Assembly: GCA_947467435.1 (NCBI GenBank)
Contig: CANIIA010000002.1
Location: 20,882 to 84,881 of the forward strand
Origin: Betaproteobacteria bacterium
GTDB taxonomy: Bacteria; Pseudomonadota; Gammaproteobacteria; Burkholderiales; SG8-39
Reading direction: 5' to 3'
DNA length: 64,000 bases
The position numbers and the translations under genes are program-made. The notes beneath the pieces were generated by a model. The model was not told where the DNA came from. It saw only the letters and a program-made list of their open reading frames with translations, and made no database searches. Shown here one piece after another: positions 3,975 through 37,747 of this stretch (the first letter of the stretch is position 1; every line of letters begins with the position of its first letter).

Positions 3975-3992
3975 CTCACCACACGCCAATTC

Positions 3993-9025: not shown

Positions 9026-9031
9026 AGCGCG

Positions 9032-10195: not shown

Positions 10196-10215
10196 GCGCT
10201 TCCAATCACAACAAT

Positions 10216-11502: not shown

Positions 11503-11731
11503 AACAAGAATCCGCTTGCCTCTGTAGACAACGTATTGCCGGGCGCGGATTGTCACACCTTTGCGCTGAATGGGGAACGTACCTTACGCGCCAGGCTTGT
11601 CCACAAGCTTGCGAGAAGCTGTCTAAATTCTGACGTTGCATCGCAACATGATCGAGCGTGTAGCGATCTGTTTGGTTGCGAGGTGCTTGGGGCTGGATTA
11701 GGATCCAACGCACTGTTCCTAGGAGGGTCCG

Positions 11732-12211
11732 ATGACCATCAACGTCTCTATGCAAGTCAATGGCAAAGCCGCCAGCGTGAATGTCGAAGAACGCACGTTA
11801 TTGGTGACCGTGCTGCGCGAAGAACTTCGTCTTACCGGCACGCACGTCGGCTGCGATACCGCCCAGTGCGGTGCATGCACCGTGCATATGAATGGCAAGG
11901 CCGTAAAGTCTTGCTCGATGCTCGCCATGCAAGCCGAGGGTGCGCAAATTTTGACCATCGAAGGTGTTGCCCATGCAGATGGCAGCCTGCATCCAATGCA
12001 GGCGGCGTTTAAAGAGCATCACGGTCTGCAATGCGGTTTTTGTACCCCCGGCATGGTGATGAATGCCATCGATTTAGTGCAAGGTCGACCTAACATCACC
12101 GAAGAAGAAATTCGTCACGGACTCGAAGGTAACTTGTGTCGCTGTACCGGCTATCACAACATTGTGAAGTCGATTGCAGCTGGTGCAAAAGCAATGGCAA
12201 GCGCGAAGTAA
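11732..12211 (+). CDS. coxS: [2Fe-2S] small subunit of a molybdenum hydroxylase (CoxS-like)
   Basis: 159 aa. Motifs [38 protein letters not shown] about 6 nt upstream. Confidence 0.93.
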
Positions 12212-12255
12212 CGCTCAAAAAAACACAACCAAAATAAACGGTTCAGGAGACGACA

Positions 12256-14622
12256 ATGAATGCACCTTTGATCGGCGCACGGGTTGCGCGTAAAGAAGAC
12301 TACCGTTTCCTCACCGGTGCTGGGCAATACACCGATGATGTGAATCTGCCACATCAAACGTACGCCGCCTTTGTTCGTTCACCGCACGCACACGCAAAGT
12401 TAAAGCGCATTCAGACCAGCAAAGCCAAACAACATCCCGGTGTGCTTGCGATTTTTACTGGTGAAGACATGCAGGTGGGCAGTTTGCCTTGCGGTTGGCT
12501 GATTACCGATGTGCATGGCCAACCCATGAAAGAACCGCCGCATCCGCCCTTAGCGCAAGGCAAAGTTCGGCACGTGGGTGACCAGGTCGCGGTGGTAATT
12601 GCAGAAACGCTTTCAGCTGCGCGTGATGCCGCCGAGTTGGTCGAGGTGGAGTACGAGGTCCTTCCAGCAGTGATTGATATGGCCAAGGCCACCGCAGCGG
12701 GCGCCCCGGCCATTCATGACGCTGCGCCAGATAACACCTGCTACGTGTGGGCCTTAGGAGATCAAAGCGCGTGCGACGAAGCGTTTAAAAAAGCGGCGCA
12801 TGTCACACGTCTCAATTTAGTGAATAACCGTCTCATTCCCAATGCCATCGAGCCACGCGCAGTCAACGGCAGTTATTCGCGCGGCGATGATAGCTATACG
12901 CTATACGTCTCGAGTCAAAACCCTCACGTCGAACGTCTTTTGATGACTGCGTTTGTGCTGGGGTTACCCGAGCACAAGGTACGTGTCGTTGCACCTGATG
13001 TGGGTGGTGGGTTTGGCTCAAAAATTTATTTGTACGCTGAAGATGTGGTGGTGACTTGGGCCTCCAAACAAATCGGCGGACGCCCCGTGAAGTGGACTGG
13101 CGATCGCAGCGAATCTTTTTTAAGCGACGCGCATGGTCGCGATCACATCACGCAGGCCGAGTTAGCGCTGGATAAAGACGGAAAATTTCTGGCACTGCGC
13201 GTACACACGACAGCCAATATGGGCGCTTACCTATCCACCTTTGCGTCGTGTATCCCAACGATTTTGTATGCCACGCTGCTGGCAGGCCAATACGCCACGC
13301 CGGCGATTTACTGTGAAGTCAAAGCGGTCTTCACGAACACCGCGCCTGTCGATGCTTATCGTGGCGCAGGCCGTCCTGAGGCGGCGTACGTGGTAGAGCG
13401 CATCGTTGAAACCGCCGCGCGTGAACTGAAGATCGATCCGGCAGAATTACGGCGACGTAATTTCGTGCGTAATTTTCCATATCAAACCCCCGTGGCGCTG
13501 ACCTATGACACGGGTGATTTTCAAGCCACACTCGATGGCGCCATTCAACTGAGCGATGTCGCTGGATTTGCTCAGCGTAGAAAAGCTTCTGAAGCGGCCG
13601 GTAAATTACGCGGCCTCGGCTACGCCGCGTACATCGAAGCTTGCGGCTTGGCCCCTTCGAACATTGCTGGCGCCCTCGGTGCGCGCGCAGGGTTATTTGA
13701 AGCAGGCGAGGTACGTGTACATCCCACCGGATCAGTGACGGTGTTTACTGGATCACACTCACACGGCCAAGGGCACGAAACCACGTTCGCGCAAGTCGTG
13801 GCCGATCGTTTAGGCATGCCGATCGAAAACGTCGATATCGTGCACGGCGATACCTCGAAGGTGGTGTTTGGCATGGGCACTTATGGCTCGCGCTCGCTGT
13901 CGGTGGGTGGTACCGCGATCGTGAAAGCCTTAGACAAAATTATCGCGAAGGGCAAAAAAATAGCAGCGCACTTAATGGAAGCCGCAGAAGCCGATATCGA
14001 TTACGACAGCGGCGTATTCAAAGTGAGTGGCACGGATAAACAAAAAACCTTTGGCGAAGTCGCCTTTGCGGCGTACGTGCCACACAACTATCCGCTCGAT
14101 AAACTCGAACCCGGCCTCAATGAAAATGCGTTTTACGATCCCACCAACTTCACCTACCCCTCTGGTACATACATTTGTGAAGTCGAAGTCGATCCAGACA
14201 CGGGCACCGTGCGCGTCGATCGATTTACGGCTGTTGATGACTTTGGAAAAATCGTCAATCCAATGATTGTCGAGGGACAAGTGCATGGCGGCGTGACCCA
14301 AGGCATCGGTCAAGCCTTACTCGAAGGTTGTCATTACGATACTGAAACCGGTCAATTGATCACTGGCTCGTTTATGGATTACGCCATGCCGCGTGCCGAA
14401 GATGTACCGAGTTATGCGCTAGCAACGCGCGAAACACCGTGCACGCATAATCCGTTAGGCGTGAAAGGTTGCGGTGAGGCTGGCGCGATCGGCGCACCTG
14501 CGGCATTAATGAATGCCATCACCGATGCGCTGAGTATTTACGGTATTCAAGATTTACCGATGCCCGCTAGCCCACAAACTGTGTGGAAAGCGATCCGCGC
14601 CGCGCAACAAAAAGCGGCCTAA
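12256..14622 (+). CDS. coxL: Molybdopterin-binding large subunit, form-II CoxL-like
   Basis: 788 aa. N-terminus [17 protein letters not shown], then VGGGFGSK. Active-site loop [12 protein letters not shown] (AYRGAGR signature of form-II/putative CODH, not the form-I AYRCSFR). Confidence 0.9.
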
Positions 14623-14688
14623 ACGGATACGCATTCAGCACACGCTTTTTTTATTCCACACGAAACAACGCAACACGGAGAAATCAAT

Positions 14689-15489
14689 ATGTACGCATTT
14701 ACTTACCACCGCCCCGCCAGTGCGGCCGATGCCGCAGCGCTCGCACTCAAACACACCGACGGAAAAATTCTTGCTGGAGGACAAAGTTTGGTGCAAGCCA
14801 TGAAACTGCGCCTCGCCTCCCCTAGCGACATTATTGATTTGGGCACCGCCAAAGACCTCGTCGGCATTTCACAAAAAGGCAATCAGATCACGATCGGCGC
14901 GATGACGCGTCACGCCGCAGTTGAGCAAAGTGCTGAAGTCAAACAACTGATTCCTGCATTAGCCGATCTCGCTGGGGGTATTGGCGATCGTCAAGTGCGT
15001 CATATGGGCACACTCGGTGGAGCGCTAGCAAACAACGACCCGGCCGCGTGTTATCCCGCCGCAGTACTTGGCTTAGGCGCAACCATCCAGACCAACAAGC
15101 GCACGATTGCCGCCGATGATTTCTTTAAAGGCTTGTACGAAACCGCACTTGAGTCTAGCGAGATCATCACCGCTGTCACCTTTCCCGCTGCCAAGCGCGC
15201 GGCCTACATCAAGTTTAAAAACCCCGCTTCACGGTTTGCGTTAGTTGGCGTGTTTGTTGCGCAAATGGACCAAGGGGTGCGCTTAGCCGTCACCGGTGCG
15301 GCCTCTTGTGTGTTTCGTGTGCCCGAGATGGAAAAAGCGCTGGGGGCTGCGTTTACGCCAGAGTCAATCGCCAAGATTCATGTGAGCGCCGACGACCTCA
15401 ACTCGGATCTACATGCCGCTGCAGATTACCGCGCCCATCTGATTACCGTGATGGCCAAGCGCGCAGTGAGCAAAGCGCTGGGTCAGTAA
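14689..15489 (+). CDS. coxM: FAD-binding medium subunit (CoxM-like)
   Basis: 266 aa. ILAGGQSLVQAMKLR FAD-binding motif. Completes the S-L-M gene order. Confidence 0.9.
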   Translation: MYAFTYHRPASAADAAALALKHTDGKILAGGQSLVQAMKLRLASPSDIIDLGTAKDLVGISQKGNQITIGAMTRHAAVEQSAEVKQLIPALADLAGGIGDRQVRHMGTLGGALANNDPAACYPAAVLGLGATIQTNKRTIAADDFFKGLYETALESSEIITAVTFPAAKRAAYIKFKNPASRFALVGVFVAQMDQGVRLAVTGAASCVFRVPEMEKALGAAFTPESIAKIHVSADDLNSDLHAAADYRAHLITVMAKRAVSKALGQ

Positions 15490-15502
15490 TTTTTCTGGCT
15501 TC

Positions 15503-15539
15503 AAAAAAAAACGCGCGTCAGGTTTGGCGCGCGTTTTTT
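15503..15539. terminator. Bidirectional intrinsic terminator between convergent coxM and acyl-CoA ligase genes
   Basis: A8-ACGCGCG-tcaggtttgg-CGCGCGT-T6. The GC stem is flanked by an A-tract on one side and a T-tract on the other. Confidence 0.7.
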
Positions 15540-15600
15540 ATTGCGTCAGCAACAACAAAGCAACAACTCCATCTGACGAGTTCAATCACAACAGCCTCAT

Positions 15601-17124
15601 CTACGGGGCAACAAAATTCGCTTTCAGTTGATACTTGAGCACCTTGCCAGAACTATTACGCGGCAAGGCATCCACAAACATCACGTACTTGGGTTTTTTG
15701 TAGCCAGCAATTCGGTTGCGACAGTGCTCGATCAAGGCCTCGGCTACGAGGTGCTCACCAGGGCGCAACTCAACCCACGCGGCAACCGCTTCACCGTACA
15801 TGGCATCTGGCACACCAGCGACTGCGGCATCTTGCACCGCTGGATGTTCAAGTAAGGCGGCCTCAACTTCTTTTGAATAGATGTTGTAGCCGCCGGATAA
15901 CACCATGTCTTTTTTGCGGTCGACAATGTACAAATAGCCCTCAGCATCCCGACGCGCTAAATCCCCAGTGGCAAACCAACCGTCGCGCAGTGCTTCAGCG
16001 GTTTCTTGTGGTCGATTAAAGTACCCACGCAGCGTCACAAAGCGCCCGGGTTCACCGCTACGCACTTGCAACTCGCCAATGGCGTCCTCTTCCGTGACCA
16101 GTTCGCCAGCTGCACTCATCAAACGCACTTCAATGCCGGCAATCGGTCGACCGATCGAGGTGGGACGTGTGAGTTGCTCTTCTGGCGGTAAGTTGGTCAA
16201 CGCGCCACACTCGGTCATCGCAAAGTACGAGTGAATGCCAATTTGCGGCAACGCTTGCATGATGCGCGCCTTCACTTCACGCGGAAACGCCTCGCCCGTG
16301 GCCACCAATAAACGCACTGTGGCAAACGCTTGTGGTTGCGCTTCGATCGCGGGTAGTAACAAGCGACCCACCGTCGGCACCATTCCCAGCACGGTAATAC
16401 CTTCAGTGGCACATAAGCGCGCCGCTTCGTTGGCATCAAAGCGCGGCAAGATCACCAATGGCGAACCAATACACAACATATTAATCACGCGACCAAACGC
16501 CGTCCGGTGCGTGAGCGGTGTGGTGATTAAGTGTTTGTCGTTGGCATTGATGCCCCATTCCAAGGCGTTGATGTAAGCGTTGGGTACAAAATAATTCGAT
16601 TGGGTCAGAATCGCGCCCTTGGGTCGACCGGTGGTGCCTGAGGTGTAGGCGATCATGCAGTCGTCTTGATGGACCGGTAAATCAAATCGCTGCGGGGCAT
16701 GCGCTTGCCATAACGCATCAAAATCTAATTCTTGCCCTTGTGTTTCACCTGCCACCAAGATCACCGGCACATCGTGCGTTGCGCGCTCTAACAACGACCG
16801 CGTCTCTGGATGGATAAACATCGCACGCGGTGCGCAATCGGCCAAAATAAAACTGGCTTCCGAAGGTGTGAGCCGCGTGCCAATCGGTACGGCGATCGCG
16901 CCCACCTTGATGATGGCAAGAAACGCCAACACATATTCCGCGCAGTTGGGTAACAGCACCGCGACGCGATCACCCACACCAACCCCACGTGCGTGTAGTG
17001 CTGCAGCGAGCTGATCACTGCGCGTATCGAGCGCGACAAACGATAAGCGCAACGCACCACAAATTAAGGCTTCACGCTCTGGCGTTGCGCGTGCGTGCGC
17101 CGCCAGAAATGCTGGCAGTTTCAT
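15601..17124 (-). CDS. AMP-dependent acyl-CoA synthetase/ligase
   Basis: 507 aa. Motifs YTSGTTGRPKGA, GWFATGDLARRDAEGYLYIVDRKKD, PRNSSGKVLK. Confidence 0.93.
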   Translation of the reverse strand: MKLPAFLAAHARATPEREALICGALRLSFVALDTRSDQLAAALHARGVGVGDRVAVLLPNCAEYVLAFLAIIKVGAIAVPIGTRLTPSEASFILADCAPRAMFIHPETRSLLERATHDVPVILVAGETQGQELDFDALWQAHAPQRFDLPVHQDDCMIAYTSGTTGRPKGAILTQSNYFVPNAYINALEWGINANDKHLITTPLTHRTAFGRVINMLCIGSPLVILPRFDANEAARLCATEGITVLGMVPTVGRLLLPAIEAQPQAFATVRLLVATGEAFPREVKARIMQALPQIGIHSYFAMTECGALTNLPPEEQLTRPTSIGRPIAGIEVRLMSAAGELVTEEDAIGELQVRSGEPGRFVTLRGYFNRPQETAEALRDGWFATGDLARRDAEGYLYIVDRKKDMVLSGGYNIYSKEVEAALLEHPAVQDAAVAGVPDAMYGEAVAAWVELRPGEHLVAEALIEHCRNRIAGYKKPKYVMFVDALPRNSSGKVLKYQLKANFVAP

Positions 17125-17163
17125 CGGTTATACCAAGACAGTCAGTGAATGAGTGGGAGTGTC

Positions 17164-17601
17164 TTACGCTGGCTCAAAACCAGGCAGATCGTATTCTTCG
17201 GAAAGTTTTTCAAAGCACACTTTCACCGGCATACCGATCTTCACGTCTTCGTTTTTCACGTGATGCAAGTTCACCAACATACGCACGCCCTCTTCTAGCT
17301 CGACCAAGGCGCACAAATACGGCACGCGATCTTCATGACCTGGCCAAGCGCTGTAGGTGTTGGTAAAGCTATACACCGTGCCGCGCCCAGACACTTCACG
17401 CCACTCTAAATTGCGTCGACCATTCACCATGCTCACTGGACGCGGAAAAAACTGCGCGCGACCACTGTCTTTGCAATATTGAACGACGAGTTTTCCTTGA
17501 TGGGCCGCATCCCAAAACGGACGTGTGTCCATGTACACCCCTGGTTTTGGTAGGGGACGTGGAATTTTTTTTGGTTCAGGTTTTTTTGCAACGTCGCTCA
17601 T
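17164..17601 (-). CDS. DUF35 OB-fold protein (acyl-CoA-associated), Zn-ribbon apparently degenerate
   Basis: 145 aa. Core FWDAAHQGKLVVQYCKDSGRAQFFPRPVS...GTVYSFT typical of DUF35. Only one Cys where a four-Cys ribbon is usual. ATGA-type overlap with the upstream thiolase-fold gene. Confidence 0.8.
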   Translation of the reverse strand: MSDVAKKPEPKKIPRPLPKPGVYMDTRPFWDAAHQGKLVVQYCKDSGRAQFFPRPVSMVNGRRNLEWREVSGRGTVYSFTNTYSAWPGHEDRVPYLCALVELEEGVRMLVNLHHVKNEDVKIGMPVKVCFEKLSEEYDLPGFEPA

Positions 17602-18770
17602 GATTGCTCCAGGATCAGCACGTTAGATACACCCCAGTTACGGCCGTAGGGAATGACCCCAATCCCCGTCACCATACAATTGCGCGGGTCGCTGACTTGA
17701 CGGGCACCGGCACCGCCCAACATTTGGCGTACCCCTTCGACCAAATTCAAACCACCCCCCGCCAAGCCAGGTTGGCCAGCAGAAATTTGTCCGCCCGACG
17801 TGTTTAACGGCAGCGTGCCTTTGTAGGTGAAGTCGGTGTTCATCACAAACTCACAGCCTTTACCTTTCGGACAAAAACCAATGTCTTCCAGCGTAATCAC
17901 CAACGCGATCAGAAAATCATCGTAGGGCATGATCATGCGTACATCTTTGGCGGCCATACCGGCTTGCTTTAAGGCACGTGGACCGGCCACAGAAAATCCG
18001 GAGACGGTCATATCGGCCAGCGGATCAGCACCCTTAAAGTTAGTGATCTCGCCATAACCGACCGGATGACACATGCGCTTGGCGCCGTATTTTTTGGCTT
18101 TTTCCGTCGATGTCACTAACACGGCGTTCGCACCATCGCACACCATCACCGAATCCAACATACGTAGTGGCTCAGACACATATTTCGAGCTGAGATACTC
18201 TTCTTCAGTGAGTGGCTTTTGTAATTTGTCGCAGGCGTTGGGGTTCATCAACGCATGATTGCGCTGGGTGATTGCAAGTTTTGCCAGCGCACGATCATCT
18301 AAGCCGTATTGATGACGGTAGCGTTGCGAGAGCAAACCAAACGCACCCACCGGTCCACGTAAGCCTTGTGGGTACTGAAATTCATGACGCTGGCCGCCTT
18401 GCTCAGTCGGTCGCGATGACGATTGCGCATCTGAGGCCAGCACTAACACGGTCTCGCATAGGCCATCACGAATCGCTGCTGCTGCGCGCGCAATACCTCC
18501 AATACCAGAGGCACCGCCCAAGCCATTGAGTTGCATCCAGGTGGGCGAAATGCCAAGCATCTCGCACATGTAAACCCCCCAAAATGGATTGGCAGTTTCG
18601 CTCATGGTTTCAGCGATGGATATGCCATCGATGTCTTTGGGCTCAAGGCCGGTTTGCACCAAGACTTGTTCAAATACTTCGCCAGCCAAATCATAAGAAC
18701 TACGTCCACCCTTTAAGGTGACCTTGGTTTCGCCGTAACCAATGACGGCGATATCTTTACGCGTACTCAT
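17598..18770 (-). CDS. SCP2/Ltp-type thiolase-fold protein lacking the thiolase catalytic Cys and His (possible Ltp2-like aldol-lyase)
   Basis: ORF 17598..18887. Preferred start at 18770 (MSTRKDIAVIGYGETK). Thiolase-fold blocks are present. The nucleophile position reads LNGLGGASG and the GHP position reads SAGQPG (by-eye alignment to SCP2-thiolase motifs NNNCATG / KGHPLGATG). Confidence 0.75.
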   Translation of the reverse strand: MSTRKDIAVIGYGETKVTLKGGRSSYDLAGEVFEQVLVQTGLEPKDIDGISIAETMSETANPFWGVYMCEMLGISPTWMQLNGLGGASGIGGIARAAAAIRDGLCETVLVLASDAQSSSRPTEQGGQRHEFQYPQGLRGPVGAFGLLSQRYRHQYGLDDRALAKLAITQRNHALMNPNACDKLQKPLTEEEYLSSKYVSEPLRMLDSVMVCDGANAVLVTSTEKAKKYGAKRMCHPVGYGEITNFKGADPLADMTVSGFSVAGPRALKQAGMAAKDVRMIMPYDDFLIALVITLEDIGFCPKGKGCEFVMNTDFTYKGTLPLNTSGGQISAGQPGLAGGGLNLVEGVRQMLGGAGARQVSDPRNCMVTGIGVIPYGRNWGVSNVLILEQS

Positions 18771-19010
18771 CGCGCACCACCTTGATTGACGCGCAGCAAA
18801 GTATGTCGCGCTTGTTGGTGTGTTTGCAGCTTCATCTGTGTTCTCCGTGTCTAAATCGTGCAGCGTGATCGCCACCGTTCGCGCCAACGCGCATTGCAGA
18901 CCCCATCGTAAGGCGTTTCCCCGCTGCGATGCAGCGCGTCTGTGAAACTACGCGATACGCGTTCACAATCACCACCGAGCGCGGGCGTGTTGCGAAACGC
19001 AAACCATGCC

Positions 19011-19039
19011 TTGACGCATGCAAATCAGCCGCCTAGTCT
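19011..19039 (+). promoter_or_regulatory. Weak sigma70-like promoter candidate for the ligase/thioesterase/Mo-enzyme operon
   Basis: TTGACG (19011-19016), 17-nt spacer, TAGTCT (19034-19039). The -10 matches only 3/6. A TTGCGAAACGCAA palindrome lies just upstream at 18990-19002. Confidence 0.2.
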
Positions 19040-19072
19040 CGACTGCTATTGCTTGGCGTCTCCAAGGACTGC

Positions 19073-20644
19073 ATGCTCACTCTGCCCACCCTGTTGCGGC
19101 GCACCGCACGCTTGCATGGCAAGCATATCGCCATCCGCGATCCCGAAGGGGATCTGTCGTGGCAGGCCTATCATGCGCGTATCGTGCGCGCTGCAGGCAT
19201 GCTCCGTCATTCTTTGGGGCTTCAGCCTGGTGCGCGCATCGGCATTTTGGCGCGCAATAGTGTGCGACAAGCCGAACTCATCTATGCCGCTTATTGGGCA
19301 GGTGTCGTGCCTGTGCCCGTGAACTTTCGCTTAGCCCCCCCTGAGATTGCCGATTTGCTCGCCGACGCTGAATGTGCGGCGCTCGCCATTGAATCGACGT
19401 TTTTATCGCTCTTCGATCACCACGCACTCACCCAATGGCGTGATCGCGCCATGTTACTTGGGGCAACCAGCACCGCAGCGCAACCCATCGGACTGGGCGC
19501 GTATGACACGCTGCGTGATGCGGCTCCGCCCATCGATGCACACGAACCCGATGAGCATGATGATGCGATTTTGCTATACACCGGCGGTACTACCGGTCGC
19601 GGTAAGGGCGTGCGCATCACGCATCGCAATGTCGTGGCCAATGCAATGCAATTGGCGCATATCATGAATATCGCTGCGCAAGATAGTTACTTGCATGTCT
19701 CACCGATGTTTCATTCCACCGATTTAAAAGCCACTTGTCTCACGCTACATGGTGGCAGCCATGTTTATCTGCCTGAGTTCACACCGGCCGGCGTACTAGA
19801 GGCCATTGCACATTACGGCATCACGATTGGTAGTTTGGTGCCGACCATGATCATTCGTTTGCTACAAGACCCCGCGTTTGGCAAACACGATATCTCTACC
19901 TTACGCGTGATTAGCTACGGCACCTCTCCGATGGCCGCCGAATGGATTCGTCGTACCATAAACGCGTTTCCGAACGTGGCCATGCAACAAGTGTATGGGC
20001 TCACCGAAACTTCACCCGTACTTGCGATTTTGGATGAACACGATCACGCGCGTGCCTTGGCCGGAGAAGAGCACATCTTGCGTGCGGGCGGCCGGCCCGT
20101 GGCGGGCACCGATGTTCGCATCGTCGATGAGAACGGTCATGAAGTGCCGCCTGAAGAAAGTGGCGAAATTTTGGTGCGCGGCCCGCAAGTAGCGAATGGC
20201 TATCACAACCGTCCGCGCGAAACCGCCGAGGTGTTTCGTGATGGCTGGTTACGCACCGGCGATGTCGGGCGGCTCGATGCCGAAGGGTATTTGTACGTAC
20301 TCGATCGCAAAAAAGACATGGTCATCACCGGCGGTGAAAACGTCTACACCTCAGAAGTCGAAGCGGTGTTGTATCAACATCCCGGAGTGCATGAAGTGGC
20401 GGTGATTGGTGTGCCCGATGAACGTTTTGGTGAAGCCCTTTGCGCAGTGATTGTGCCCGCCCCAGGTCACACTTTCAGTGCTGAAGATATTATTCAGCAC
20501 TGTCGTGGGCGTATTGGTGGTTACAAGATTCCACGCCAAGTACGATTCGTCGACGCGTTACCAAAAAGCGCCATGGGAAAAACCCTCAAACAAACGCTAC
20601 GGCAAGAAGCTGTGGCCATGCAATCCGGGTCCCGTACGCCTTAG
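19073..20644 (+). CDS. AMP-dependent acyl-CoA synthetase/ligase
   Basis: ORF from 19049. The ATG at 19073 is preceded by AAGGA at 5-nt spacing. Motifs YTGGTTGRGKGV, GWLRTGDVGRLDAEGYLYVLDRKKD, PKSAMGKTLK. Confidence 0.92.
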   Translation: MLTLPTLLRRTARLHGKHIAIRDPEGDLSWQAYHARIVRAAGMLRHSLGLQPGARIGILARNSVRQAELIYAAYWAGVVPVPVNFRLAPPEIADLLADAECAALAIESTFLSLFDHHALTQWRDRAMLLGATSTAAQPIGLGAYDTLRDAAPPIDAHEPDEHDDAILLYTGGTTGRGKGVRITHRNVVANAMQLAHIMNIAAQDSYLHVSPMFHSTDLKATCLTLHGGSHVYLPEFTPAGVLEAIAHYGITIGSLVPTMIIRLLQDPAFGKHDISTLRVISYGTSPMAAEWIRRTINAFPNVAMQQVYGLTETSPVLAILDEHDHARALAGEEHILRAGGRPVAGTDVRIVDENGHEVPPEESGEILVRGPQVANGYHNRPRETAEVFRDGWLRTGDVGRLDAEGYLYVLDRKKDMVITGGENVYTSEVEAVLYQHPGVHEVAVIGVPDERFGEALCAVIVPAPGHTFSAEDIIQHCRGRIGGYKIPRQVRFVDALPKSAMGKTLKQTLRQEAVAMQSGSRTP

Positions 20645-20698
20645 TACGTCACCGCAGGAGTGCAGCGTTGATTTTTTATTTTTTTTAGGAGACATCGT

Positions 20699-21112
20699 AT
20701 GAAACCCGGATTCACTGTTGGCATGAAAAAAACCGCACGCATCACGGTCGATACTGATCGCACCATCGGCTTTATGGGTGATGCGCTACGCGTATACGCC
20801 ACGCCGATGATGGTGCGCGATGTCGAAATTACCTGCAAAGATTTTCTCGGAGAATTTCTGAGTGCCGAAGAAAACTCTGTGGGCGCGCGCGTCGAAATCG
20901 ATCATCTCGGTCCAACGCTGCGCGATATGTGGGTCGACATCACAGCAACAGTCACCGCCATCGAGGGTCGACGGGTGAATTTTGAAGTCGAAGTACGTGA
21001 TGCGCTCGATACCGTCGGTAAGGTGAAGCACACGCGCTTTATTGTGGAGCTTGCCAAACAAAAAGAGCGCCTCGAAGCCAAGGCCGCCAAGTTAGCTGCG
21101 CTCGGTCATTAA
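20699..21112 (+). CDS. Hotdog-fold thioesterase superfamily protein (FlK-like)
   Basis: 137 aa. Pattern TVD...ATPMMVRDVE...VGARVEIDHLGPT...GRRVNFEVEVRD typical of small acyl-CoA thioesterases. Confidence 0.7.
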   Translation: MKPGFTVGMKKTARITVDTDRTIGFMGDALRVYATPMMVRDVEITCKDFLGEFLSAEENSVGARVEIDHLGPTLRDMWVDITATVTAIEGRRVNFEVEVRDALDTVGKVKHTRFIVELAKQKERLEAKAAKLAALGH

Positions 21113-21205
21113 GAAGACGCACAACGCACGCATTAAGTAACACACCGCATTGCCGGACGTACAGCACGCCATTCAACCTCACTGATCACGGTCCATACAC
21201 CACCC

Positions 21206-23959
21206 ATGTCAACGACAATTCCTGTTCAACCCGTCACCAGCACGGGCGAGTCCAAGATGGTGCCGCTGTATTGCAATCAGTGCGTGTGCGGCCCTGATTT
21301 ATTTAAAGTCGAGGTGCGCGATGGTGTGGCGTTGCGCATGACCCCGAATCACGACCTCGAGGGTATTCATCCAGCCGGTGGTCGCGTATGCGTCAAAGCC
21401 TATGGCTTGGTACAAAAAACCTACAACCCCAATCGCCTGACGCAACCACTGAAACGCACCAACCCTAAAAAAGGTAAAGAACACGATCCCGGCTTTGTAC
21501 CGATTTCGTGGGATGAAGCACTCGACTTGGTGGCAGAAAAATTAAACGCTATTCGCGCCAAGGGCCTGCGAGATGAAGAAGGTTACCCACGCGTAGCAGC
21601 GACCTTTGGTGGTGGCGGCACGCCAACGCGTTACATGGGAACGTTTCCAGCATTTTTGTCCGCGTGGGGCGTTCTGGATCAAGGCTATGGTTCGGGTCAA
21701 GGAGCCAAGTGCTTTCACTCTGAACATTTATATGGTGAGTTTTGGCACCGCGCCTTCACGGTGGTTGTCGATTCACTGAATTGCGATTACGTGATTAACT
21801 TTGGCAGCAATCACGAAGCTTCCGGTGGCGTATCGGGGGTATGGCGACAAGCCGATGCGCGCTCACGCGGCTTAAAACGTGTGCAGGTTGAGCCGCATTT
21901 GTCGGTGACGGGCGCATTGTCCGGTGAATGGGTACCGATCAAACCAAAAACAGATGCTGCATTTTTGTATGGCTTGATTCATCGCATTTTGCTCGAGCGC
22001 GATTGGCAGGCTGTGTGTGATGTGCGTTTTTTAAAAGAAGACACCAATTCGCCGTATTTGGTTGGACCACACGGCTATTTCATGCGCGACACAGTCTCAG
22101 GCAAGCCACTCATTTGGGACACCGCCGCGCAATGCGCCAAGCCCTATGACGCCTCGATTAGCGATGCCGCACTGACGGGTAGCTATTGTGTCAGTGGCGA
22201 AGAACACGGACCCGATGGCGAACGCTGGCAACACACCGAGATCCAAGCGCAACCGTCCTTCGAACGGTTGCGCGAACACATGCGTAAATACACGCCGGAG
22301 TGGGCCGCAGCAGAGTGTGATGTGCCGGTAGAAACCATTCGTCGTGTTGCCGACGAATTTGTCGCGCATGCGCGTGTTGGTGCCACGATTGAAATCGACG
22401 GACAAACCTTACCGCATCGGCCCGTGGGCGTAATGCTAGGTAAAGGCGTGAACAACGGCTGGGGTGGTTATCAAGCGATGTGGGGTCGCACTTTACTCGC
22501 GAGCTTGGTGGGTGCACTCGAAGTGCCAGGTGGCACGATGGGAACCAAAGTGCGCTTGAATCGTCCTGCAGACAATCGACTAAAGAGCGCAACGCATGGC
22601 GAAGACGGATTCATGCACTACCCGTTCAATTCGACATTGAAAGCCGATTGGCAATCCAAGCCGCACATTCGCAATGCCTACAAAATGCTGGTGCCATTGG
22701 CGGCCAATTCGCCTTGGTCGGCCGCCCTGGGCCCCGCCCATTTACCTTGGCTGTTTCAACACAAAGCCCCCGCCCCTTGGCCGCGCCAAACATTGCCTGA
22801 GATGTGGATTTGTTATCGCACCAATCCAGCGATTTCATCTTGGAATGCACCCGAAGTTGCAAAACGAATCGCCGAATTTCCGTTCATGCTGGCCTTTGGT
22901 TATACCCTCGATGAATCCAACTGGATGGCGGATGTGATTTTGCCTGAGGCCAGTGATTTAGAAAGCTGGCAACTCTCACGCATCGGTGGCACCGGGTCGG
23001 CTGAACAGTTCTGGCATCACCAAGGTTGGGCGTTACGACAACCAGCGGTTGCACCCGCCGGTGATTGCAAAGACATGAGCGATATCGCGACTGAACTCGC
23101 GAAACGAACCGGTCTATTACGTGAATATAACGAAGCCATCAATCGCGGTTCTGCGGCGATGGCCTTACGTGGCAAGGACTACGACTACGCGCTCGATCCA
23201 GACATTGCCCACGATTCAAAATCGATTTGGAATGCTGTCGCGAAGGCCGCGAGTCATGAAGTGTCTGCGGGCGCAGACGTTAAAGATCTGGATTGGTTTA
23301 GCGAACACGGATTCATGATTCGTCCGTTTTCGCAACTCGAGTGGTATTTATATCCGCGCATGAAAAGCACCGGTTTACGTTTTGAACTGCCGTATCAAGA
23401 GCGCATTCAACGACATGGCGCACAACTCGAGCGGCGCCTACACGAAGTTGGGATCCAATGGTGGGATCCTCAATTAAAAGAATATGAAGCGCTGCCTGAA
23501 TACTTACGTTTTCCCGATATCTGGGAACACTACGCGACCGAATTAGGACGCGATCCTGCCGAGTTTCCGTTGTGGGCGCTCACCGCACGCAGCATGCAAT
23601 ACGCTTGGGGCGCGAACGTGGGTTTACCTTTGATTCGAGAAGTCGCGCAAAACGTCGCCGGTCACGATGGAGTGATCATTAATCGCGCTACCGCCAAACG
23701 CTTAGGCATTGCGGATGGCGATCCGATTGTTCTTGAATCAGCCAGCGGCACCACCCGGGGTCGCGCCACGCTACGCGAAGGTATTCGTCCCGACACGGTC
23801 TTATTGATTGGACAATTTGATCACTGGGCCACGCCAGTGGCTAAAGATTTTGGTGTCGCCAGTCTCAATTCTCTTACTGATCTTGCGGTCTCTCTCACCG
23901 ATGCAACCGGGAGTGGCGCAGACATCATGCGCGTCAGCGTGAAAAAGGCACCCCGATGA
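21206..23959 (+). CDS. Molybdopterin oxidoreductase large subunit (DMSO reductase family), no signal peptide
   Basis: 917 aa. N-terminal Cys group YCNQCVCGPD...GRVCVKAY (CxxCxC...C, atypical spacing). Molybdopterin-binding blocks. No RRxFLK twin-arginine motif in the first 40 aa. Confidence 0.85.
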   Translation: MSTTIPVQPVTSTGESKMVPLYCNQCVCGPDLFKVEVRDGVALRMTPNHDLEGIHPAGGRVCVKAYGLVQKTYNPNRLTQPLKRTNPKKGKEHDPGFVPISWDEALDLVAEKLNAIRAKGLRDEEGYPRVAATFGGGGTPTRYMGTFPAFLSAWGVLDQGYGSGQGAKCFHSEHLYGEFWHRAFTVVVDSLNCDYVINFGSNHEASGGVSGVWRQADARSRGLKRVQVEPHLSVTGALSGEWVPIKPKTDAAFLYGLIHRILLERDWQAVCDVRFLKEDTNSPYLVGPHGYFMRDTVSGKPLIWDTAAQCAKPYDASISDAALTGSYCVSGEEHGPDGERWQHTEIQAQPSFERLREHMRKYTPEWAAAECDVPVETIRRVADEFVAHARVGATIEIDGQTLPHRPVGVMLGKGVNNGWGGYQAMWGRTLLASLVGALEVPGGTMGTKVRLNRPADNRLKSATHGEDGFMHYPFNSTLKADWQSKPHIRNAYKMLVPLAANSPWSAALGPAHLPWLFQHKAPAPWPRQTLPEMWICYRTNPAISSWNAPEVAKRIAEFPFMLAFGYTLDESNWMADVILPEASDLESWQLSRIGGTGSAEQFWHHQGWALRQPAVAPAGDCKDMSDIATELAKRTGLLREYNEAINRGSAAMALRGKDYDYALDPDIAHDSKSIWNAVAKAASHEVSAGADVKDLDWFSEHGFMIRPFSQLEWYLYPRMKSTGLRFELPYQERIQRHGAQLERRLHEVGIQWWDPQLKEYEALPEYLRFPDIWEHYATELGRDPAEFPLWALTARSMQYAWGANVGLPLIREVAQNVAGHDGVIINRATAKRLGIADGDPIVLESASGTTRGRATLREGIRPDTVLLIGQFDHWATPVAKDFGVASLNSLTDLAVSLTDATGSGADIMRVSVKKAPR

Positions 23960-25554
23960 AACGTTACGGCATGATTGTGGACCTCAACCGCTGCGTCGGT
24001 TGTCAGACCTGCACCATTGCGTGCAAACACAGCAACGACACGCCCCCGGGTGTGCAATGGCGTCGCGTGCTTGATGTCGAGCAAGGACAGTATCCCGATG
24101 TCGAACGGCTGTTTTTAGTCACCGGCTGTCAACATTGCGCCGAACCCTCTTGTGTACCGGTGTGCCCCACGGGTGCGACACGTCAGCGAGAAGATGGCTT
24201 GGTGACCATGAACTACGATTTATGTATTGGCTGCGCTTCGTGTGCGGTGGCATGTCCATATCAAGCACGTACCATCGTGCACGAACAACACGGCTACTAC
24301 GCAGACACCCTCACCAAGCAAGAAGAAAAAACAGCGCATACCGATCGATTGGGTGTGGCCAACAAATGTACCTTTTGTATCGAGCGTATCGATACCGCGC
24401 ATACACAGGGCTTAACGCCGGGCGTTGACCCCGACGTCACACCGGCCTGTGCAGTGTCATGCATCACGCAGGCGATTCGCTTTGGCGATTTTGCCGATCC
24501 CAACAGCACCGTGTCGCAGTTGGCGCGTGATGAACGTTCGTTTCAAATGCATGCCGAACTGGGGAATGATCCGCAGATTAAATATCTGTATGAAGTTCCA
24601 CAAGCCACACCAGGGCGCGGCCCAGACGCCATCGATGTGAGTGATGAACGTTTGTCTGATCCCGCCAATCCACTGGTTGGACAGCGTCAAACATTTTGGG
24701 ACTACCGTGCCGCAATGAATTTTATTTTGGGCGGTATGGCCGCAGGTCTCATGCTGTGCGCGTGGTGGGCCGCGCAATTACAACTGATTGAAGTGCAAGC
24801 GCATCGCCAAATCAATCTTGCTGCAGCGGCAGTCATGGCGATTGGATTGTTTTTTGTGTTTCTAAAAATCGGTCGTAAGTTGCGTTTTCTGTTTGTGTTA
24901 CTGCGTCCGCAAAGCTCATGGATGACGCGCGAAACCTGGTGCGTGGCTGCACTGTATCCTGCCATCGCCATCAGCTTTGTGTGGCCACAAGCCGTTTGGA
25001 TGCATTGCATCGCGCTCGCCGCGGCTGGTTTTTTGTATTGCCAAGGACGCATCTTGCAAGCGAGCAAGGGCATTCCCGCTTGGCGCGTTGCGCGTATGCC
25101 GATGATGTTGATCTGCACCGGCATAGCAGAAGGCATCGGTTTACTTGCACTCTTGACGGCCCAATACACAACACAAAACACGCTGCCAATGTATCTTTGC
25201 ATCGCGGGGGCGTTATTCGCGCTACTCAACGCGGTATTCTGGTGGCAGTATGTACGTCAAGCACGGGCAAACGGCATCGGTCCACTAGCCCGCGCAGATT
25301 TGATCAAGGCCACCCCAATCGTGCACGGACTCGCCCATTTAGCCCCGCTAGGTTTATACGCCCTCGCCTTAGCTAAACCTGAAACGATGCACGCGCTCAC
25401 TGCGATCGCAGGACTCTGTGCAGTCGCTGGTGGTGCATGGTGGAAATTCGTCGTCATCACCCGGGCTTGTCACCAACAAGGCTTTGCCTTGCCGATGGTG
25501 CCGCAGCGCGGTTCGGGTCAGCGTGCCGCTCCAGCGCGCTACGCGCTAAATTAA
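23956..25554 (+). CDS. Fusion protein: four-cluster [4Fe-4S] ferredoxin (DmsB-like) plus polytopic membrane anchor (DmsC/NrfD-like)
   Basis: 532 aa. N-terminal half has CVGCQTCTIAC, CQHCAEPSCVPVCP, CIGCASCAVACP, CTFC...CAVSC. The C-terminal ~290 aa has about 8 hydrophobic helices (FILGGMAAGLMLCAWW...). ATGA overlap with the Mo subunit. Confidence 0.85.
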   Translation: MKRYGMIVDLNRCVGCQTCTIACKHSNDTPPGVQWRRVLDVEQGQYPDVERLFLVTGCQHCAEPSCVPVCPTGATRQREDGLVTMNYDLCIGCASCAVACPYQARTIVHEQHGYYADTLTKQEEKTAHTDRLGVANKCTFCIERIDTAHTQGLTPGVDPDVTPACAVSCITQAIRFGDFADPNSTVSQLARDERSFQMHAELGNDPQIKYLYEVPQATPGRGPDAIDVSDERLSDPANPLVGQRQTFWDYRAAMNFILGGMAAGLMLCAWWAAQLQLIEVQAHRQINLAAAAVMAIGLFFVFLKIGRKLRFLFVLLRPQSSWMTRETWCVAALYPAIAISFVWPQAVWMHCIALAAAGFLYCQGRILQASKGIPAWRVARMPMMLICTGIAEGIGLLALLTAQYTTQNTLPMYLCIAGALFALLNAVFWWQYVRQARANGIGPLARADLIKATPIVHGLAHLAPLGLYALALAKPETMHALTAIAGLCAVAGGAWWKFVVITRACHQQGFALPMVPQRGSGQRAAPARYALN

Positions 25555-27853: not shown

Positions 27854-27922
27854 ATTGTCAGATATATGTTCGGGCCGTACGATACGGGCTACATCGTCTC
27901 ACCTACGTACGGAGTCACTCAG

Positions 27923-29212: not shown

Positions 29213-29219
29213 ACGCACC

Positions 29220-37562: not shown

Positions 37563-37633
37563 GATGCCTGTGATCACGCCGCCATGGGCGATGCAATGGG
37601 CGCTGTTTTGCAGCAATTTCACTGTTCGATATG

Positions 37634-37657: not shown

Positions 37658-37747
37658 AAACACCCCGCATTTGCAAGACGCAACTAGCGTCCCCCCCGTA
37701 AATGACTGAAAATGGCGGTCCTTTTTTTGTCGCCGACCCCCGCCACT

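What the first reader, a model, noticed from the sequence alone, without database searches (positions are those of the whole stretch)
17164..18770. Thiolase-fold protein lacking catalytic Cys and His, paired with a DUF35 protein whose zinc ribbon is degenerate
The thiolase-fold protein aligns by eye with SCP2-type thiolases. Where these carry the nucleophilic Cys (NNNCATG) it reads GLGGASG. Where they carry the catalytic His (KGHPLGATG) it reads AGQPGLAGG. Loss of these residues is what distinguishes the Ltp2-ChsH2(DUF35) steroid side-chain aldolase from true thiolases. This pair is therefore more likely a retro-aldol (C-C lyase) enzyme on a hydroxyacyl-CoA than a thiolase.

The partner DUF35 protein retains the OB-fold core but has a single Cys where a four-Cys ribbon is normal. 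No MaoC-type hydratase or acyl-CoA dehydrogenase accompanies them. The source of the hydroxyacyl-CoA substrate is therefore unexplained, unless the divergent Mo enzyme supplies it.
Basis: partly seen in the sequence, partly recalled or inferred. Interest (0 to 1): 0.65.

Follow-up and report, generated by a model that had tools for sequence, protein, structure and literature searches.

The report
Cysteine-free thiolase-like aldolase with zinc-free partner
This gene pair most likely encodes a two-protein enzyme that looks like a thiolase but has lost the thiolase machinery and probably cuts a two-carbon unit off a hydroxy-acyl-CoA by an aldolase reaction; it belongs to a widespread, uncharacterised sister branch of the known bacterial bile-acid side-chain aldolase.

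Summary
The 390-aa thiolase-fold protein (17598-18770, minus strand) has Gly where thiolases have the nucleophilic Cys. It has YDDF where SCP2 thiolases have HDCF, and GQP where they have GHP. The 145-aa DUF35 partner (17164-17601, 4-bp ATGA overlap) keeps one of four zinc-ligand cysteines.

These are family traits, not local decay. They are invariant or nearly so in about 120 homologues of each protein.

The closest characterised relative, by sequence and by predicted fold for both proteins, is the Comamonas Sal-Shy(DUF35) bile-acid aldolase (PDB 9MYR), not Ltp2. The Sal catalytic Tyr and its two Gln are kept, but the Sal catalytic Cys is Asp.

In a neighbour-joining tree the protein falls in a clade of 30 sequences, 29 of them YDD[FY], beside the Sal-like YDC group.

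Orthologues in Variovorax, Pigmentiphaga, Tardiphaga and Pseudonocardia sit with a CoA ligase and a crotonase, mostly also an acyl-CoA dehydrogenase and an aldehyde dehydrogenase. That is the gene set expected for aldolytic side-chain shortening.

This window has only the ligase. No hydratase or acyl-CoA dehydrogenase was found in 64 kb.

Homologues of the neighbouring Mo enzyme are named phenylacetyl-CoA:acceptor oxidoreductase. That enzyme oxidises the alpha carbon and is an unlikely source of the 3-hydroxyacyl-CoA.

Verdict: a new variant of a known kind. Activity and substrate are untested.

The parts
17598..18770 (-). Thiolase-fold (SCP2-type) protein, 390 aa, proposed catalytic subunit of a retro-aldol lyase acting on an acyl-CoA
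   Evidence: Pfam Thiolase_C_1 and Thiolase_N. Best solved relative is 9myr_A, CtSal (phmmer E 9e-57; Foldseek TM 0.86, E 1e-38). AF2 model pLDDT 86, pTM 0.89.
18504..18524 (-). GLGGASG: the site where thiolases carry the nucleophilic Cys. G86 aligns with that Cys and with Gly89 of CtSal.
   Evidence: G85, G86 and S88 are invariant in 118 homologues.
17913..17924 (-). YDDF motif. Y283 corresponds to the CtSal catalytic base Tyr302. D285 replaces the CtSal catalytic acid Cys304 (His296 in Ltp2; Cys of HDCF in SCP2 thiolases).
   Evidence: All four residues are invariant in 118 homologues. Residue roles are from PMC12329534.
17754..17804 (-). NTSGGQISAGQPGLAGG loop. Q328 and Q333 correspond to CtSal Gln347 and Gln352. 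Q333 sits where thiolases have the catalytic His of GHP.
   Evidence: Nearly invariant in the family. Residues 329-335 have low confidence in the AF2 model.
17164..17601 (-). Stand-alone DUF35 protein, 145 aa (N-terminal helix, ribbon, OB fold), proposed non-catalytic partner subunit. Its start overlaps the upstream stop (ATGA).
   Evidence: Pfam OB_ChsH2_C E 3e-24. Best solved relatives are 9myr_B and 6ok1_B. AF2 pLDDT 88. Adjacent to the thiolase-fold gene in 27 of 28 related genome loci.
17422..17475 (-). Degenerate zinc ribbon CKDSGRAQFFPRPVSMVN: one Cys (C43) of four ligand positions; the others are S46, S57 and N60.
   Evidence: 119 of 120 homologues have exactly one Cys in this segment. 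C43 and S57 are invariant. The region is still modelled with high confidence.
15601..17124 (-). AMP-forming acyl-CoA ligase (Lig1), 507 aa, directly downstream on the same strand. Proposed to activate the carboxylic-acid substrate.
   Evidence: Pfam AMP-binding. A ligase 50-67% identical lies in 22 of 28 related genome loci and in further fetched contexts.
18771..19048 (.). 278-bp intergenic region shared with the divergently transcribed ligase/thioesterase/Mo-enzyme operon. Presumed to hold the promoters.
   Evidence: Gene layout. The same divergent layout occurs in L012, L013, L023 and L039. The consensus promoter scan found nothing above chance.
19049..25554 (+). Neighbouring module, functional link only inferred: acyl-CoA ligase (Lig2), FlK-type thioesterase, Mo-bisPGD catalytic subunit, and a fused 4Fe-4S/membrane subunit. 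It resembles phenylacetyl-CoA:acceptor oxidoreductase PadBCD.
   Evidence: JGI gives that name to homologues 67-75% identical. The module is found without the pair in L050 and L051.
11732..15489 (+). Neighbouring CoxS/CoxL/CoxM-type molybdenum hydroxylase. CoxL carries AYRGAGR, not the CO-dehydrogenase loop. Possible aldehyde-oxidising partner; this is an inference only.
   Evidence: An XDH-family enzyme also lies next to the pair in L048, L034 and L035, but at only 30-35% identity for the large subunit where one was found.

Best explanation
The two overlapping genes encode a heteromeric enzyme, by analogy an alpha2-beta2 complex. A thiolase-fold subunit that can no longer perform thiolysis is held by a zinc-free DUF35 subunit. 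The complex cleaves a 3-hydroxyacyl-CoA by a retro-aldol reaction into an aldehyde (or ketone) plus acetyl-CoA.

Proposed chemistry:
- Tyr283 (equivalent to Tyr302 of the Comamonas bile-acid aldolase Sal) removes the proton of the beta-hydroxyl and triggers C-C cleavage.
- The backbone at Gly86, which replaces the thiolase nucleophile, helps hold the hydroxyl.
- Asp285, flanked by Gln328 and Gln333, replaces the Cys304 of Sal as the acid that protonates the acetyl-CoA enolate.

The downstream ligase makes the CoA thioester of a carboxylic-acid substrate, probably an aromatic or alicyclic acid with a side chain. In this organism the desaturation and hydration steps must be encoded elsewhere, or the acid is taken up already hydroxylated.

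Shown: loss of all thiolase catalytic residues; closest relationship to Sal; conservation of the Tyr/Asp/Gln set; the zinc-free ribbon; gene coupling; and the context in orthologues. Inferred: complex formation, the reaction, the role of Asp285, and the substrate.
For: - Thiolase residues are absent. G86, Y283, D285 and Q333 sit opposite the nucleophilic Cys, the His and Cys of HDCF, and the His of GHP.
- The closest characterised relatives are aldolases. CtSal: phmmer E 9e-57, BLASTP 36% identity over 355 aa, Foldseek TM 0.86 as top hit. Ltp2 ranks fourth. The DUF35 model matches 9myr_B and then 6ok1_B/D best.
- CtSal Tyr302, Gly89, Gln347 and Gln352 are conserved. Their roles come from mutagenesis in PMC12329534.
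- Selection is purifying. YDDF, GG.S and GGQISAGQPGLAGG are invariant or nearly so in 118 homologues at 67-100% identity. Against orthologues dN is 0.08-0.26 while synonymous sites are saturated.
- The protein lies in a clade of 30 sequences, 29 of them YDD[FY], next to the Sal-like YDC group.
- Context of orthologues about 70% identical: Variovorax has ECH, the pair, ligase, ACAD, TetR, ALDH. Pigmentiphaga has ECH, the pair, ligase, ACAD. Pseudonocardia has the pair, ligase, ECH, ACAD, ALDH. Tardiphaga has ALDH, ECH, the pair, TetR, ligase.
- Plasmid relatives at 47-54% identity, all YDDF with one-Cys DUF35 partners, sit with ligase or CoA-transferase, mostly with ACAD and crotonase, and in Bosea with ALDH.
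- The two genes are translationally coupled and adjacent in 27 of 28 genome loci.
Against: - No enzyme activity, complex or metal content was measured.
- In CtSal the Cys304 to Ala, Ser and His variants were all inactive, and the authors concluded that the thiol is specifically required. Asp was not tested, so its competence here is an assumption.
- CtSal Gln161 (proposed oxyanion hole) and Tyr165 are not conserved: they align with P140 and F144.
- The loop carrying Q333 is modelled with low confidence.
- This window has no hydratase, acyl-CoA dehydrogenase or ALDH-family aldehyde dehydrogenase.
- Among the 28 Burkholderiales genome loci only 4 show a crotonase and 1 an ALDH within the flanks fetched.
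- Some relatives' clusters contain SDR genes that could be 3-hydroxyacyl-CoA dehydrogenases.
Confidence: 0.62

Rival explanations
1. The reaction is still a retro-aldol, but the substrate arises as in the ibuprofen IpfABDEF system. A Rieske dioxygenase hydroxylates the ring carbon that carries the acyl-CoA side chain of an arylacetyl- or arylpropionyl-CoA. The pair then removes the acyl-CoA from that tertiary alcohol. This would explain why no hydratase or acyl-CoA dehydrogenase is needed.
For: - A Rieske dioxygenase alpha/beta pair lies at 27866-29729. Its homologue (81-85% identity) travels with the cluster in L013, L023, L036 and L039.
- A 60% homologue lies near the Pigmentiphaga pair.
- The pJP4 homologue sits as ligase, pair, then a convergent Rieske oxygenase.
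- IpfD also lacks the Cys, and IpfE also lacks the Cys ribbon. The ipf gene order is seen. The pathway as described here is partly from my own knowledge of Murdoch and Hay 2013, cited in PMC9195938.
Against: - IpfD is only 33% identical, less than CtSal. It belongs to the Ltp2-like type, with YDAF plus a Tyr in the GG..YLQG loop.
- The window's Rieske alpha subunit is 26% identical to IpfA and about 47% identical to Rhodococcus plasmid dioxygenases. I take these to be phthalate-type from memory; the records name them only as ring-hydroxylating dioxygenase alpha subunits.
- The Rieske genes lie 9 kb away, beyond a LysR gene, and so are not in the same operon.
- The orthologues in cultured genomes carry crotonase, and mostly an acyl-CoA dehydrogenase, instead.
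Confidence: 0.1
2. The Tyr/Asp active site performs a different reaction on a CoA ester. One option is combined hydration and cleavage of an enoyl-CoA in one site, as in the crotonase-type hydroxycinnamoyl-CoA hydratase-lyase. Other options are decarboxylation or hydrolysis.
For: - A carboxylate replaces the thiol that CtSal strictly needs.
- Many Burkholderiales loci have an acyl-CoA dehydrogenase but no hydratase within the flanks.
- The Sal-like protein TbSLP shows weak malonyl-CoA decarboxylase activity.
Against: - In the best-resolved orthologous operons a separate crotonase lies immediately next to the pair.
- The Tyr and both Gln of the Sal site are conserved.
- No precedent for hydratase activity in this fold was found in the papers read.
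Confidence: 0.12
3. The thiolase-fold protein is a non-catalytic pseudoenzyme or scaffold. For example, it could organise the ligases or bind an acyl-CoA, with DUF35 as an adaptor.
For: All canonical catalytic residues are missing. DUF35 proteins act as scaffolds in other complexes.
Against: The residues that line the former active site (YDDF, GGQISAGQPG, GG.S) are the most conserved parts of the protein across phyla. Homologues with the same Tyr are proven enzymes.
Confidence: 0.06
4. It is a true thiolase or acyltransferase that uses a non-canonical nucleophile.
For: Some YDDF relatives (pJP4, Bosea, P0121) carry a Cys one residue after the nucleophile position. C211 and C300 are invariant in the family.
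Against: - In this protein and its 118 close homologues that +1 position is Ala, Thr, Gly or Ser, never Cys.
- The activating His and the acid/base Cys are also missing.
- C211 lies in the VCDG motif, which a true thiolase (7yvy) shares as a non-catalytic position. The non-catalytic status is from my own knowledge.
Confidence: 0.04

Closest known systems
Sal-Shy(DUF35) bile-acid side-chain aldolase of Comamonas testosteroni (PDB 9MYR; PMC12329534)
   Same: - SCP2-thiolase fold with Gly at the nucleophile position.
- The Tyr of the YDxx motif and both Gln of the GGQ...GQ loop are conserved.
- A DUF35 partner is present.
- It is the best hit for both proteins by sequence and by predicted structure.
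   Different: - The essential Cys304 is Asp285 here. Gln161 and Tyr165 are not kept.
- The DUF35 is a separate 145-aa protein, not the C-terminal domain of a MaoC hydratase.
- It has no Cys3His zinc site.
- No steroid-degradation genes were found in the window.
- Identity is only 36%.
Ltp2-ChsH2(DUF35) steroid C3 side-chain aldolase of Thermomonospora curvata (PDB 6OK1)
   Same: Same fold, no nucleophilic Cys, a conserved first Tyr (YDHF versus YDDF), and a DUF35 partner.
   Different: - The catalytic acid Tyr344 and the oxyanion-hole His296 are absent. The loop is Sal-like (GQPGLAGG), not the shorter Ltp2 form ending in ...AYIHG.
- The ChsH2 DUF35 has a Cys4 zinc ribbon.
- Identity is 28%.
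IpfD/IpfE of the ibuprofen pathway (plasmid pIBU218, Rhizorhabdus wittichii MPO218; PMC9195938)
   Same: - A Cys-less thiolase-fold protein plus a DUF35 protein without a Cys ribbon.
- They are encoded next to an acyl-CoA ligase in a xenobiotic-acid pathway.
   Different: - Motif YDAF with an Ltp2-like Tyr in the second loop.
- 33% identity over 300 aa.
- Tightly clustered with a Rieske dioxygenase.
- Genetic evidence only.
SCP2-type thiolases with DUF35 partners (BbsAB benzoylsuccinyl-CoA thiolase 7PXP; archaeal thiolase/HMG-CoA synthase complex 6ESQ; P. furiosus thiolase 7YVY)
   Same: Same fold and the same kind of DUF35 partner. Foldseek TM 0.83-0.87.
   Different: They keep the nucleophilic Cys, the GHP His and a Cys4 zinc ribbon. 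The query has none of these.

Membership tests
Thiolase (SCP2-type, thiolytic) | Nucleophilic Cys at the start of helix N-alpha3 (NNNCATG / aaCasg) | tested here: not met
   Query G86 aligns with the Cys of 7yvy. Gly is invariant in 118 homologues. The +1 residue is Ala, Thr, Gly or Ser.
Thiolase (SCP2-type, thiolytic) | His of the GHP loop and His/Cys of the HDCF motif | tested here: not met
   GQ333P aligns opposite GHP of 7yvy and 7pxp. YDDF aligns opposite HDAF of 7yvy; the SCP2 consensus HDCF is taken from the paper.
Thiolase superfamily fold | Five-layer alpha-beta-alpha-beta-alpha thiolase fold of about 390 aa | tested here: met
   Pfam Thiolase_N and Thiolase_C_1. AF2 pTM 0.89. Foldseek TM 0.8-0.87 to many thiolase-fold chains.
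Sal-type acyl-CoA aldolase (CtSal) | Catalytic base Tyr302 in the YDCY motif | tested here: met
   Y283 aligns with Tyr302 and is invariant in the family.
Sal-type acyl-CoA aldolase (CtSal) | Catalytic acid Cys304 (Ala, Ser and His variants are inactive) | tested here: not met
   D285 aligns with Cys304. Asp is invariant in 118 homologues and in the YDD clade.
Sal-type acyl-CoA aldolase (CtSal) | Gln347 and Gln352 flanking the catalytic acid; Gly89 at the former nucleophile site | tested here: met
   They align with Q328, Q333 and G86.
Sal-type acyl-CoA aldolase (CtSal) | DUF35 partner supplied by the MaoC hydratase Shy, with a Cys3His zinc site | tested here: not met
   The DUF35 here is a stand-alone protein with one Cys and no His at the ligand position. 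No MaoC domain was found in the window.
Sal-type acyl-CoA aldolase (CtSal) | Retro-aldol cleavage of a 3-hydroxyacyl-CoA to an aldehyde plus acetyl-CoA | not testable with these tools
   Supported only indirectly, by the ligase/crotonase gene sets (mostly with ACAD and ALDH) around orthologues.
Ltp2-type aldolase | Tyr294 of YDHF together with the second catalytic Tyr344 and His296 | tested here: not met
   The first Tyr is kept. His296 is replaced by Asp285. The Tyr344 loop is replaced by the Sal-like GQPGLAGG.
DUF35 (ChsH2-type OB-fold protein) | C-terminal OB fold (PF01796) | tested here: met
   E 3e-24 over the full profile length. AF2 pLDDT 88. Foldseek matches 9myr_B and 6ok1_B.
DUF35 (ChsH2-type OB-fold protein) | Cys4 (CxxC...CxxC) rubredoxin-like zinc ribbon | tested here: not met
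   Only C43 remains; the other ligand positions are S46, S57 and N60. 119 of 120 homologues have a single Cys.
Phenylacetyl-CoA:acceptor oxidoreductase PadBCD (neighbouring module, considered as source of the substrate) | Mo-bisPGD subunit plus FeS subunit plus membrane subunit, next to an aryl-acid CoA ligase; oxidises C-alpha of phenylacetyl-CoA | tested here: inconclusive
   The subunit types are present, with the FeS and membrane parts fused. JGI gives this name to homologues 67-75% identical. No comparison with the biochemically studied Thauera or Aromatoleum sequences was possible. The padEFGHI genes are absent from the window.

The most novel reading that the evidence does not exclude
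The YDD[FY] thiolase-fold proteins with zinc-free DUF35 partners form a separate, widespread class of acyl-CoA C-C lyases. They use a Tyr/Asp pair instead of the Tyr/Cys pair of Sal or the Tyr/Tyr pair of Ltp2, and they act on non-steroid substrates, probably aryl-alkanoates.

In this Burkholderiales lineage the class would be wired, through a shared divergent promoter region, to an oxygen-independent PadBCD-like alpha-oxidation module. Side chains would then be trimmed first by aldol cleavage and next by alpha-oxidation.

A bolder version is that the Asp lets the enzyme both hydrate and cleave an enoyl-CoA, which would explain the clusters that lack a hydratase.
Probability: 0.25. Interest if true: 0.6.

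Novelty: new variant of a known kind. Interest (0 to 1): 0.45.

Why it matters
Thiolase-fold aldolases are known from only two biochemically studied steroid enzymes, each with a different catalytic pair. A third solution (Tyr/Asp), conserved across Proteobacteria and Actinobacteria and carried on catabolic plasmids such as pJP4, would have three consequences:
- It would show that this fold has been repurposed for C-C lyase chemistry more often, and on more substrates, than is recognised.
- It would correct the blanket annotation of these genes as "acetyl-CoA acetyltransferase/thiolase".
- It would offer new aldolases for biocatalysis.

The zinc-free ribbon also gives a natural test of what the zinc site in DUF35 partners is for.

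Tried and rejected
- **Mo enzyme as hydroxyl donor.** Rejected as the best reading. Homologues are named phenylacetyl-CoA:acceptor oxidoreductase, an alpha-carbon oxidiser. The module occurs without the pair in L050 and L051. Only 5 of 28 related genome loci carry it beside the pair.
- **FlK-like hotdog protein (20699-21112) as a hidden MaoC-type hydratase.** Rejected. It matches only the FlK and 4HBT thioesterase families and keeps the FlK Thr/Glu/His triad.
- **IpfDE-type system.** Kept only as a minor rival. IpfD is more distant than Sal and of the Ltp2-like type, and the window's Rieske subunit is only 26% identical to IpfA.
- **Local gene decay or pseudogene.** Rejected. The unusual residues are invariant across the family, and dN is low while synonymous sites are saturated.
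- **Promoter and terminator scan of 15300-19300.** It gave nothing above the shuffled background.
- **Ligase substrate clues.** PDB matches for both ligases are generic: FadD5/FadD13, with feruloyl-CoA synthetase at E 2e-68 for Lig1 and 1e-88 for Lig2. They are not decisive.
- **Literature searches for a characterised YDD-type or non-steroid DUF35 aldolase.** They found only the steroid enzymes and the ipf genetics.
Full report
**What is there**

The region holds three co-directional genes on the minus strand:
- a 390-aa thiolase-fold protein (17598-18770);
- a 145-aa DUF35 protein (17164-17601), whose ATG overlaps the upstream stop (ATGA);
- a 507-aa AMP-forming acyl-CoA ligase (15601-17124).

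Gene callers on six metagenome contigs with identical synteny use the same starts. Pfam gives Thiolase_C_1 (E 8e-37) and Thiolase_N for the first protein. It gives OB_ChsH2_C (E 3e-24) and a weak zf-ChsH2 hit (E 1e-5) for the second.

**Check of the observation**

HMMER alignments to solved structures give three placements:
- G86 of GLGGASG lies opposite the nucleophilic Cys of a true thiolase (7yvy, aaCasg).
- YDDF lies opposite its HDAF.
- GQ333P lies opposite the GHP of 7yvy and of BbsB (7pxp).

Independent MAFFT alignments agree. Translations of the exact coordinates were verified.

In the DUF35 protein the ribbon reads CKDSGRAQFFPRPVSMVN. Only the first of the four ligand positions is Cys. 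The others are Ser46, Ser57 and Asn60.

**A family trait, not decay**

More than 1,700 proteins match the thiolase-fold protein at E below 1e-10. Across 118 near-full-length homologues of 67-100% identity:
- G85, G86, S88 and Y283-D284-D285-F286 are invariant;
- GGQISAGQPGLAGG is nearly invariant;
- the residue after G86 is never Cys.

The homologues include Tardiphaga, Variovorax, Pigmentiphaga and Pseudonocardia.

Among 120 DUF35 homologues, 119 have exactly one Cys in the ribbon, and C43 and S57 are invariant. The same holds for partners read directly from 30 loci.

Against orthologues, non-synonymous divergence is 0.08-0.26 while synonymous sites are saturated. Both proteins are thus under strong purifying selection with this unusual residue set.

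**Closest known relatives**

By sequence, the best solved match of the thiolase-fold protein is 9myr_A (E 9e-57; BLASTP 36% identity over 355 aa). Next come 4u4e (an uncharacterised Cys-less "thiolase") and 6ok1_A, Ltp2. The best match of the DUF35 protein is 9myr_B (E 4e-19), then 6ok1_B.

9MYR is the Sal-Shy(DUF35) bile-acid aldolase of Comamonas testosteroni.

The AlphaFold2 models have pLDDT 86 / pTM 0.89 and pLDDT 88. Searched against the PDB, they again return 9myr_A (TM 0.86) and 9myr_B (TM 0.77) as top hits, with Ltp2-ChsH2 close behind. The ribbon is modelled with high confidence despite the missing cysteines.

**Mapping the Sal active site**

The Sal paper shows that Tyr302 and Cys304 of the YDCY motif are essential. 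C304A, C304S and C304H are inactive. Gln347 and Gln352 are proposed to tune Cys304. A Gly occupies the position of the thiolase nucleophile.

| CtSal residue | Residue here |
|---|---|
| Tyr302 | Y283 |
| Cys304 | D285 |
| Tyr305 | F286 |
| Gln347 | Q328 |
| Gln352 | Q333 |
| Gly89 | G86 |
| Gln161 | P140 (not kept) |
| Tyr165 | F144 (not kept) |

The Ltp2 solution is absent. That solution uses Tyr294 with Tyr344, plus His296.

**A distinct clade**

The exhaustive search of 50%-identity representatives shows that almost all of the nearest 150 clusters lack the nucleophilic Cys and carry YDxF or YDxY.

In a neighbour-joining tree the query lies in a clade of 30 sequences, 29 of which are YDD[FY]. 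The next node out adds CtSal and the YDC sequences.

Plasmid relatives from Bosea (54%), Sphingobium baderi (49%) and pJP4 (47%) are also YDDF and also have one-Cys DUF35 partners. I found no paper on a YDD-type enzyme.

**Genomic context elsewhere**

Orthologues about 70% identical lie in these arrangements:
- Variovorax: crotonase, the pair, ligase, ACAD, TetR, ALDH.
- Pigmentiphaga: crotonase, the pair, ligase, ACAD.
- Pseudonocardia: the pair, ligase, crotonase, ACAD, ALDH.
- Tardiphaga: ALDH, crotonase, the pair, TetR, ligase.

This is the gene set expected when an acid is activated, desaturated, hydrated, split into aldehyde plus acetyl-CoA, and the aldehyde re-oxidised. The Sal pathway has the same logic.

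In 28 Burkholderiales genome loci:
- the pair is adjacent in 27;
- a Lig1-type ligase is present in 22;
- an ACAD-like gene is present in 15;
- a crotonase is present in 4;
- an ALDH is present in 1.

Surrounding genes repeatedly point to aromatic acids. They include Rieske oxygenases, UbiD/UbiX, tfdA and 4-hydroxyphenylacetate hydroxylase.

**Context in this window**

No crotonase, MaoC or acyl-CoA dehydrogenase was found in the 64 kb. This rests on Pfam scans of nearly all ORFs of at least 200 aa and on reading the start of small gap ORFs. The cluster here is a reduced version: close relatives L013, L023 and L039 carry an extra ligase, an ACAD and a TctC gene between DUF35 and Lig1.

A similar minimal layout occurs in L048: TctC, the pair and a ligase beside an XDH-family enzyme. 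The 3-hydroxyacyl-CoA must therefore arise in one of two ways:
- enzymes encoded elsewhere make it;
- a hydroxy-acid is activated directly by the ligase.

The adjacent CoxSLM-type molybdenum hydroxylase could oxidise the aldehyde product. Its CoxL carries AYRGAGR, which I recall as the non-CO-dehydrogenase form. This role is only an inference. The XDH-family enzymes near the pair in other loci are just 30-35% identical in the large subunit where one was found.

**The divergent Mo enzyme**

The operon at 19049-25554 encodes a ligase, a FlK-type thioesterase, a Tat-less Mo-bisPGD subunit, and a fused 4Fe-4S/NrfD-like membrane subunit.

Homologues of the Mo subunit at 67-75% identity are named phenylacetyl-CoA:acceptor oxidoreductase by JGI. 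This is the PadBCD enzyme of anaerobic phenylacetate metabolism. Its gene set is described in PMC4453571. Its conversion of phenylacetyl-CoA to phenylglyoxylate by oxidation at C-alpha is from my own knowledge of Rhee and Fuchs 1999, which that paper cites.

Such an enzyme would not make a 3-hydroxyacyl-CoA. The module also occurs without the pair in other genomes. The name is a lead, not a test: I could not compare the subunit with the biochemically studied sequences.

A sequential arrangement is possible but untested. In it, aldol cleavage yields an arylacetaldehyde, this is oxidised to arylacetate, and the arylacetate is activated by Lig2 and alpha-oxidised.

**Mechanism proposed**

A DUF35-braced dimer of the thiolase-fold subunit binds a 3-hydroxyacyl-CoA.
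1. Tyr283 deprotonates the hydroxyl.
2. The C2-C3 bond breaks.
3. Asp285, held by Gln328 and Gln333, protonates the acetyl-CoA enolate.

The residue pattern, homology, conservation, gene coupling and context are shown. Complex formation, the reaction, the role of Asp and the substrate are inferred.

The main weakness is that Sal does not tolerate Ala, Ser or His at this position and Asp has not been tested. I put the confidence at about 0.6.

Rivals are an Ipf-like route through ring dihydroxylation, a different reaction at the Tyr/Asp site, a pseudoenzyme, and a non-canonical thiolase.

**Verdict**

The pair is best described as a member of an uncharacterised YDD[FY] sister clade of Sal-type aldolases with a zinc-free DUF35 partner: a new variant of a known kind. 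Interest is moderate. It is a clear, testable lead for enzymologists working on thiolase-fold lyases, but not a new category of system.

Noticed in passing
window 19049-25554 (+): Operon of acyl-CoA ligase, FlK-type thioesterase (Thr/Glu/His triad kept), Mo-bisPGD subunit without a twin-arginine signal, and a fused 4Fe-4S/NrfD-like membrane subunit. Homologues of the Mo subunit at 67-75% identity are named phenylacetyl-CoA:acceptor oxidoreductase (PadBCD). The core FlK-Mo-FeS/membrane set recurs in L050 and L051 (L051 also has the ligase). The best solved structure, ArrA, matches mainly the first ~270 residues.
   Followed up: partly
window 11732-15489 (+); 33794-40514: Two xanthine-dehydrogenase-family enzymes. 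One is a CoxS/L/M set whose large subunit has AYRGAGR rather than the CO-dehydrogenase loop. The other has a large subunit (33794-36268) and an FAD subunit (36681-37676), followed by CoxD/CoxE/CoxG-like accessory genes. XDH-family genes also sit beside the Pad-like module in L050 and L051.
   Followed up: partly
window 27866-29729 (+), with LysR at 26788-27813 (-): Rieske ring-hydroxylating dioxygenase alpha and beta subunits, about 47% identical to Rhodococcus plasmid dioxygenase alpha subunits. Homologues at 81-85% identity travel with the Mo operon in L013, L023, L036 and L039.
   Followed up: partly
L041 (plasmid pJP4) 7445-11668: On the 2,4-D plasmid pJP4, directly after tfdA, lie an acyl-CoA synthetase, a YDDF thiolase-fold protein (47% identical) and a one-Cys OB-fold protein, facing a Rieske oxygenase gene. 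This set appears to be uncharacterised.
   Followed up: partly
L041 9001-10155; L043 6601-7758; protein P0121: Some YDDF-clade members (pJP4, Bosea, P0121) carry a Cys one residue after the former nucleophile position (GGC). The window protein and its close family have Ala, Thr, Gly or Ser there.
   Followed up: no
L028 6348-7570: A second copy of the thiolase-fold gene, in the same MAG as L020, is followed directly by a ligase. No DUF35 gene was detectable between them.
   Followed up: no
L010/L049 and L046, L047: Genomes carrying the YDDF pair often carry a second, different thiolase-fold/DUF35 pair nearby. One example is an Ltp2-like YDNF type with a full Cys4 ribbon, flanked by CoA-transferases.
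   Followed up: no
window 54301-59083: Cluster with AllG and AllH (oxamate carbamoyltransferase subunits), a CoA-ligase-like protein (Ligase_CoA and CoA_binding domains) and an amino-acid (carbamate-type) kinase.
   Followed up: no
window 2428-5117 (+): A small ACP-like ORF, a beta-ketoacyl synthase and an NAD_binding_4 (fatty-acyl reductase-like) protein sit between two-component regulator genes and an RND efflux system (5897-11556).
   Followed up: no
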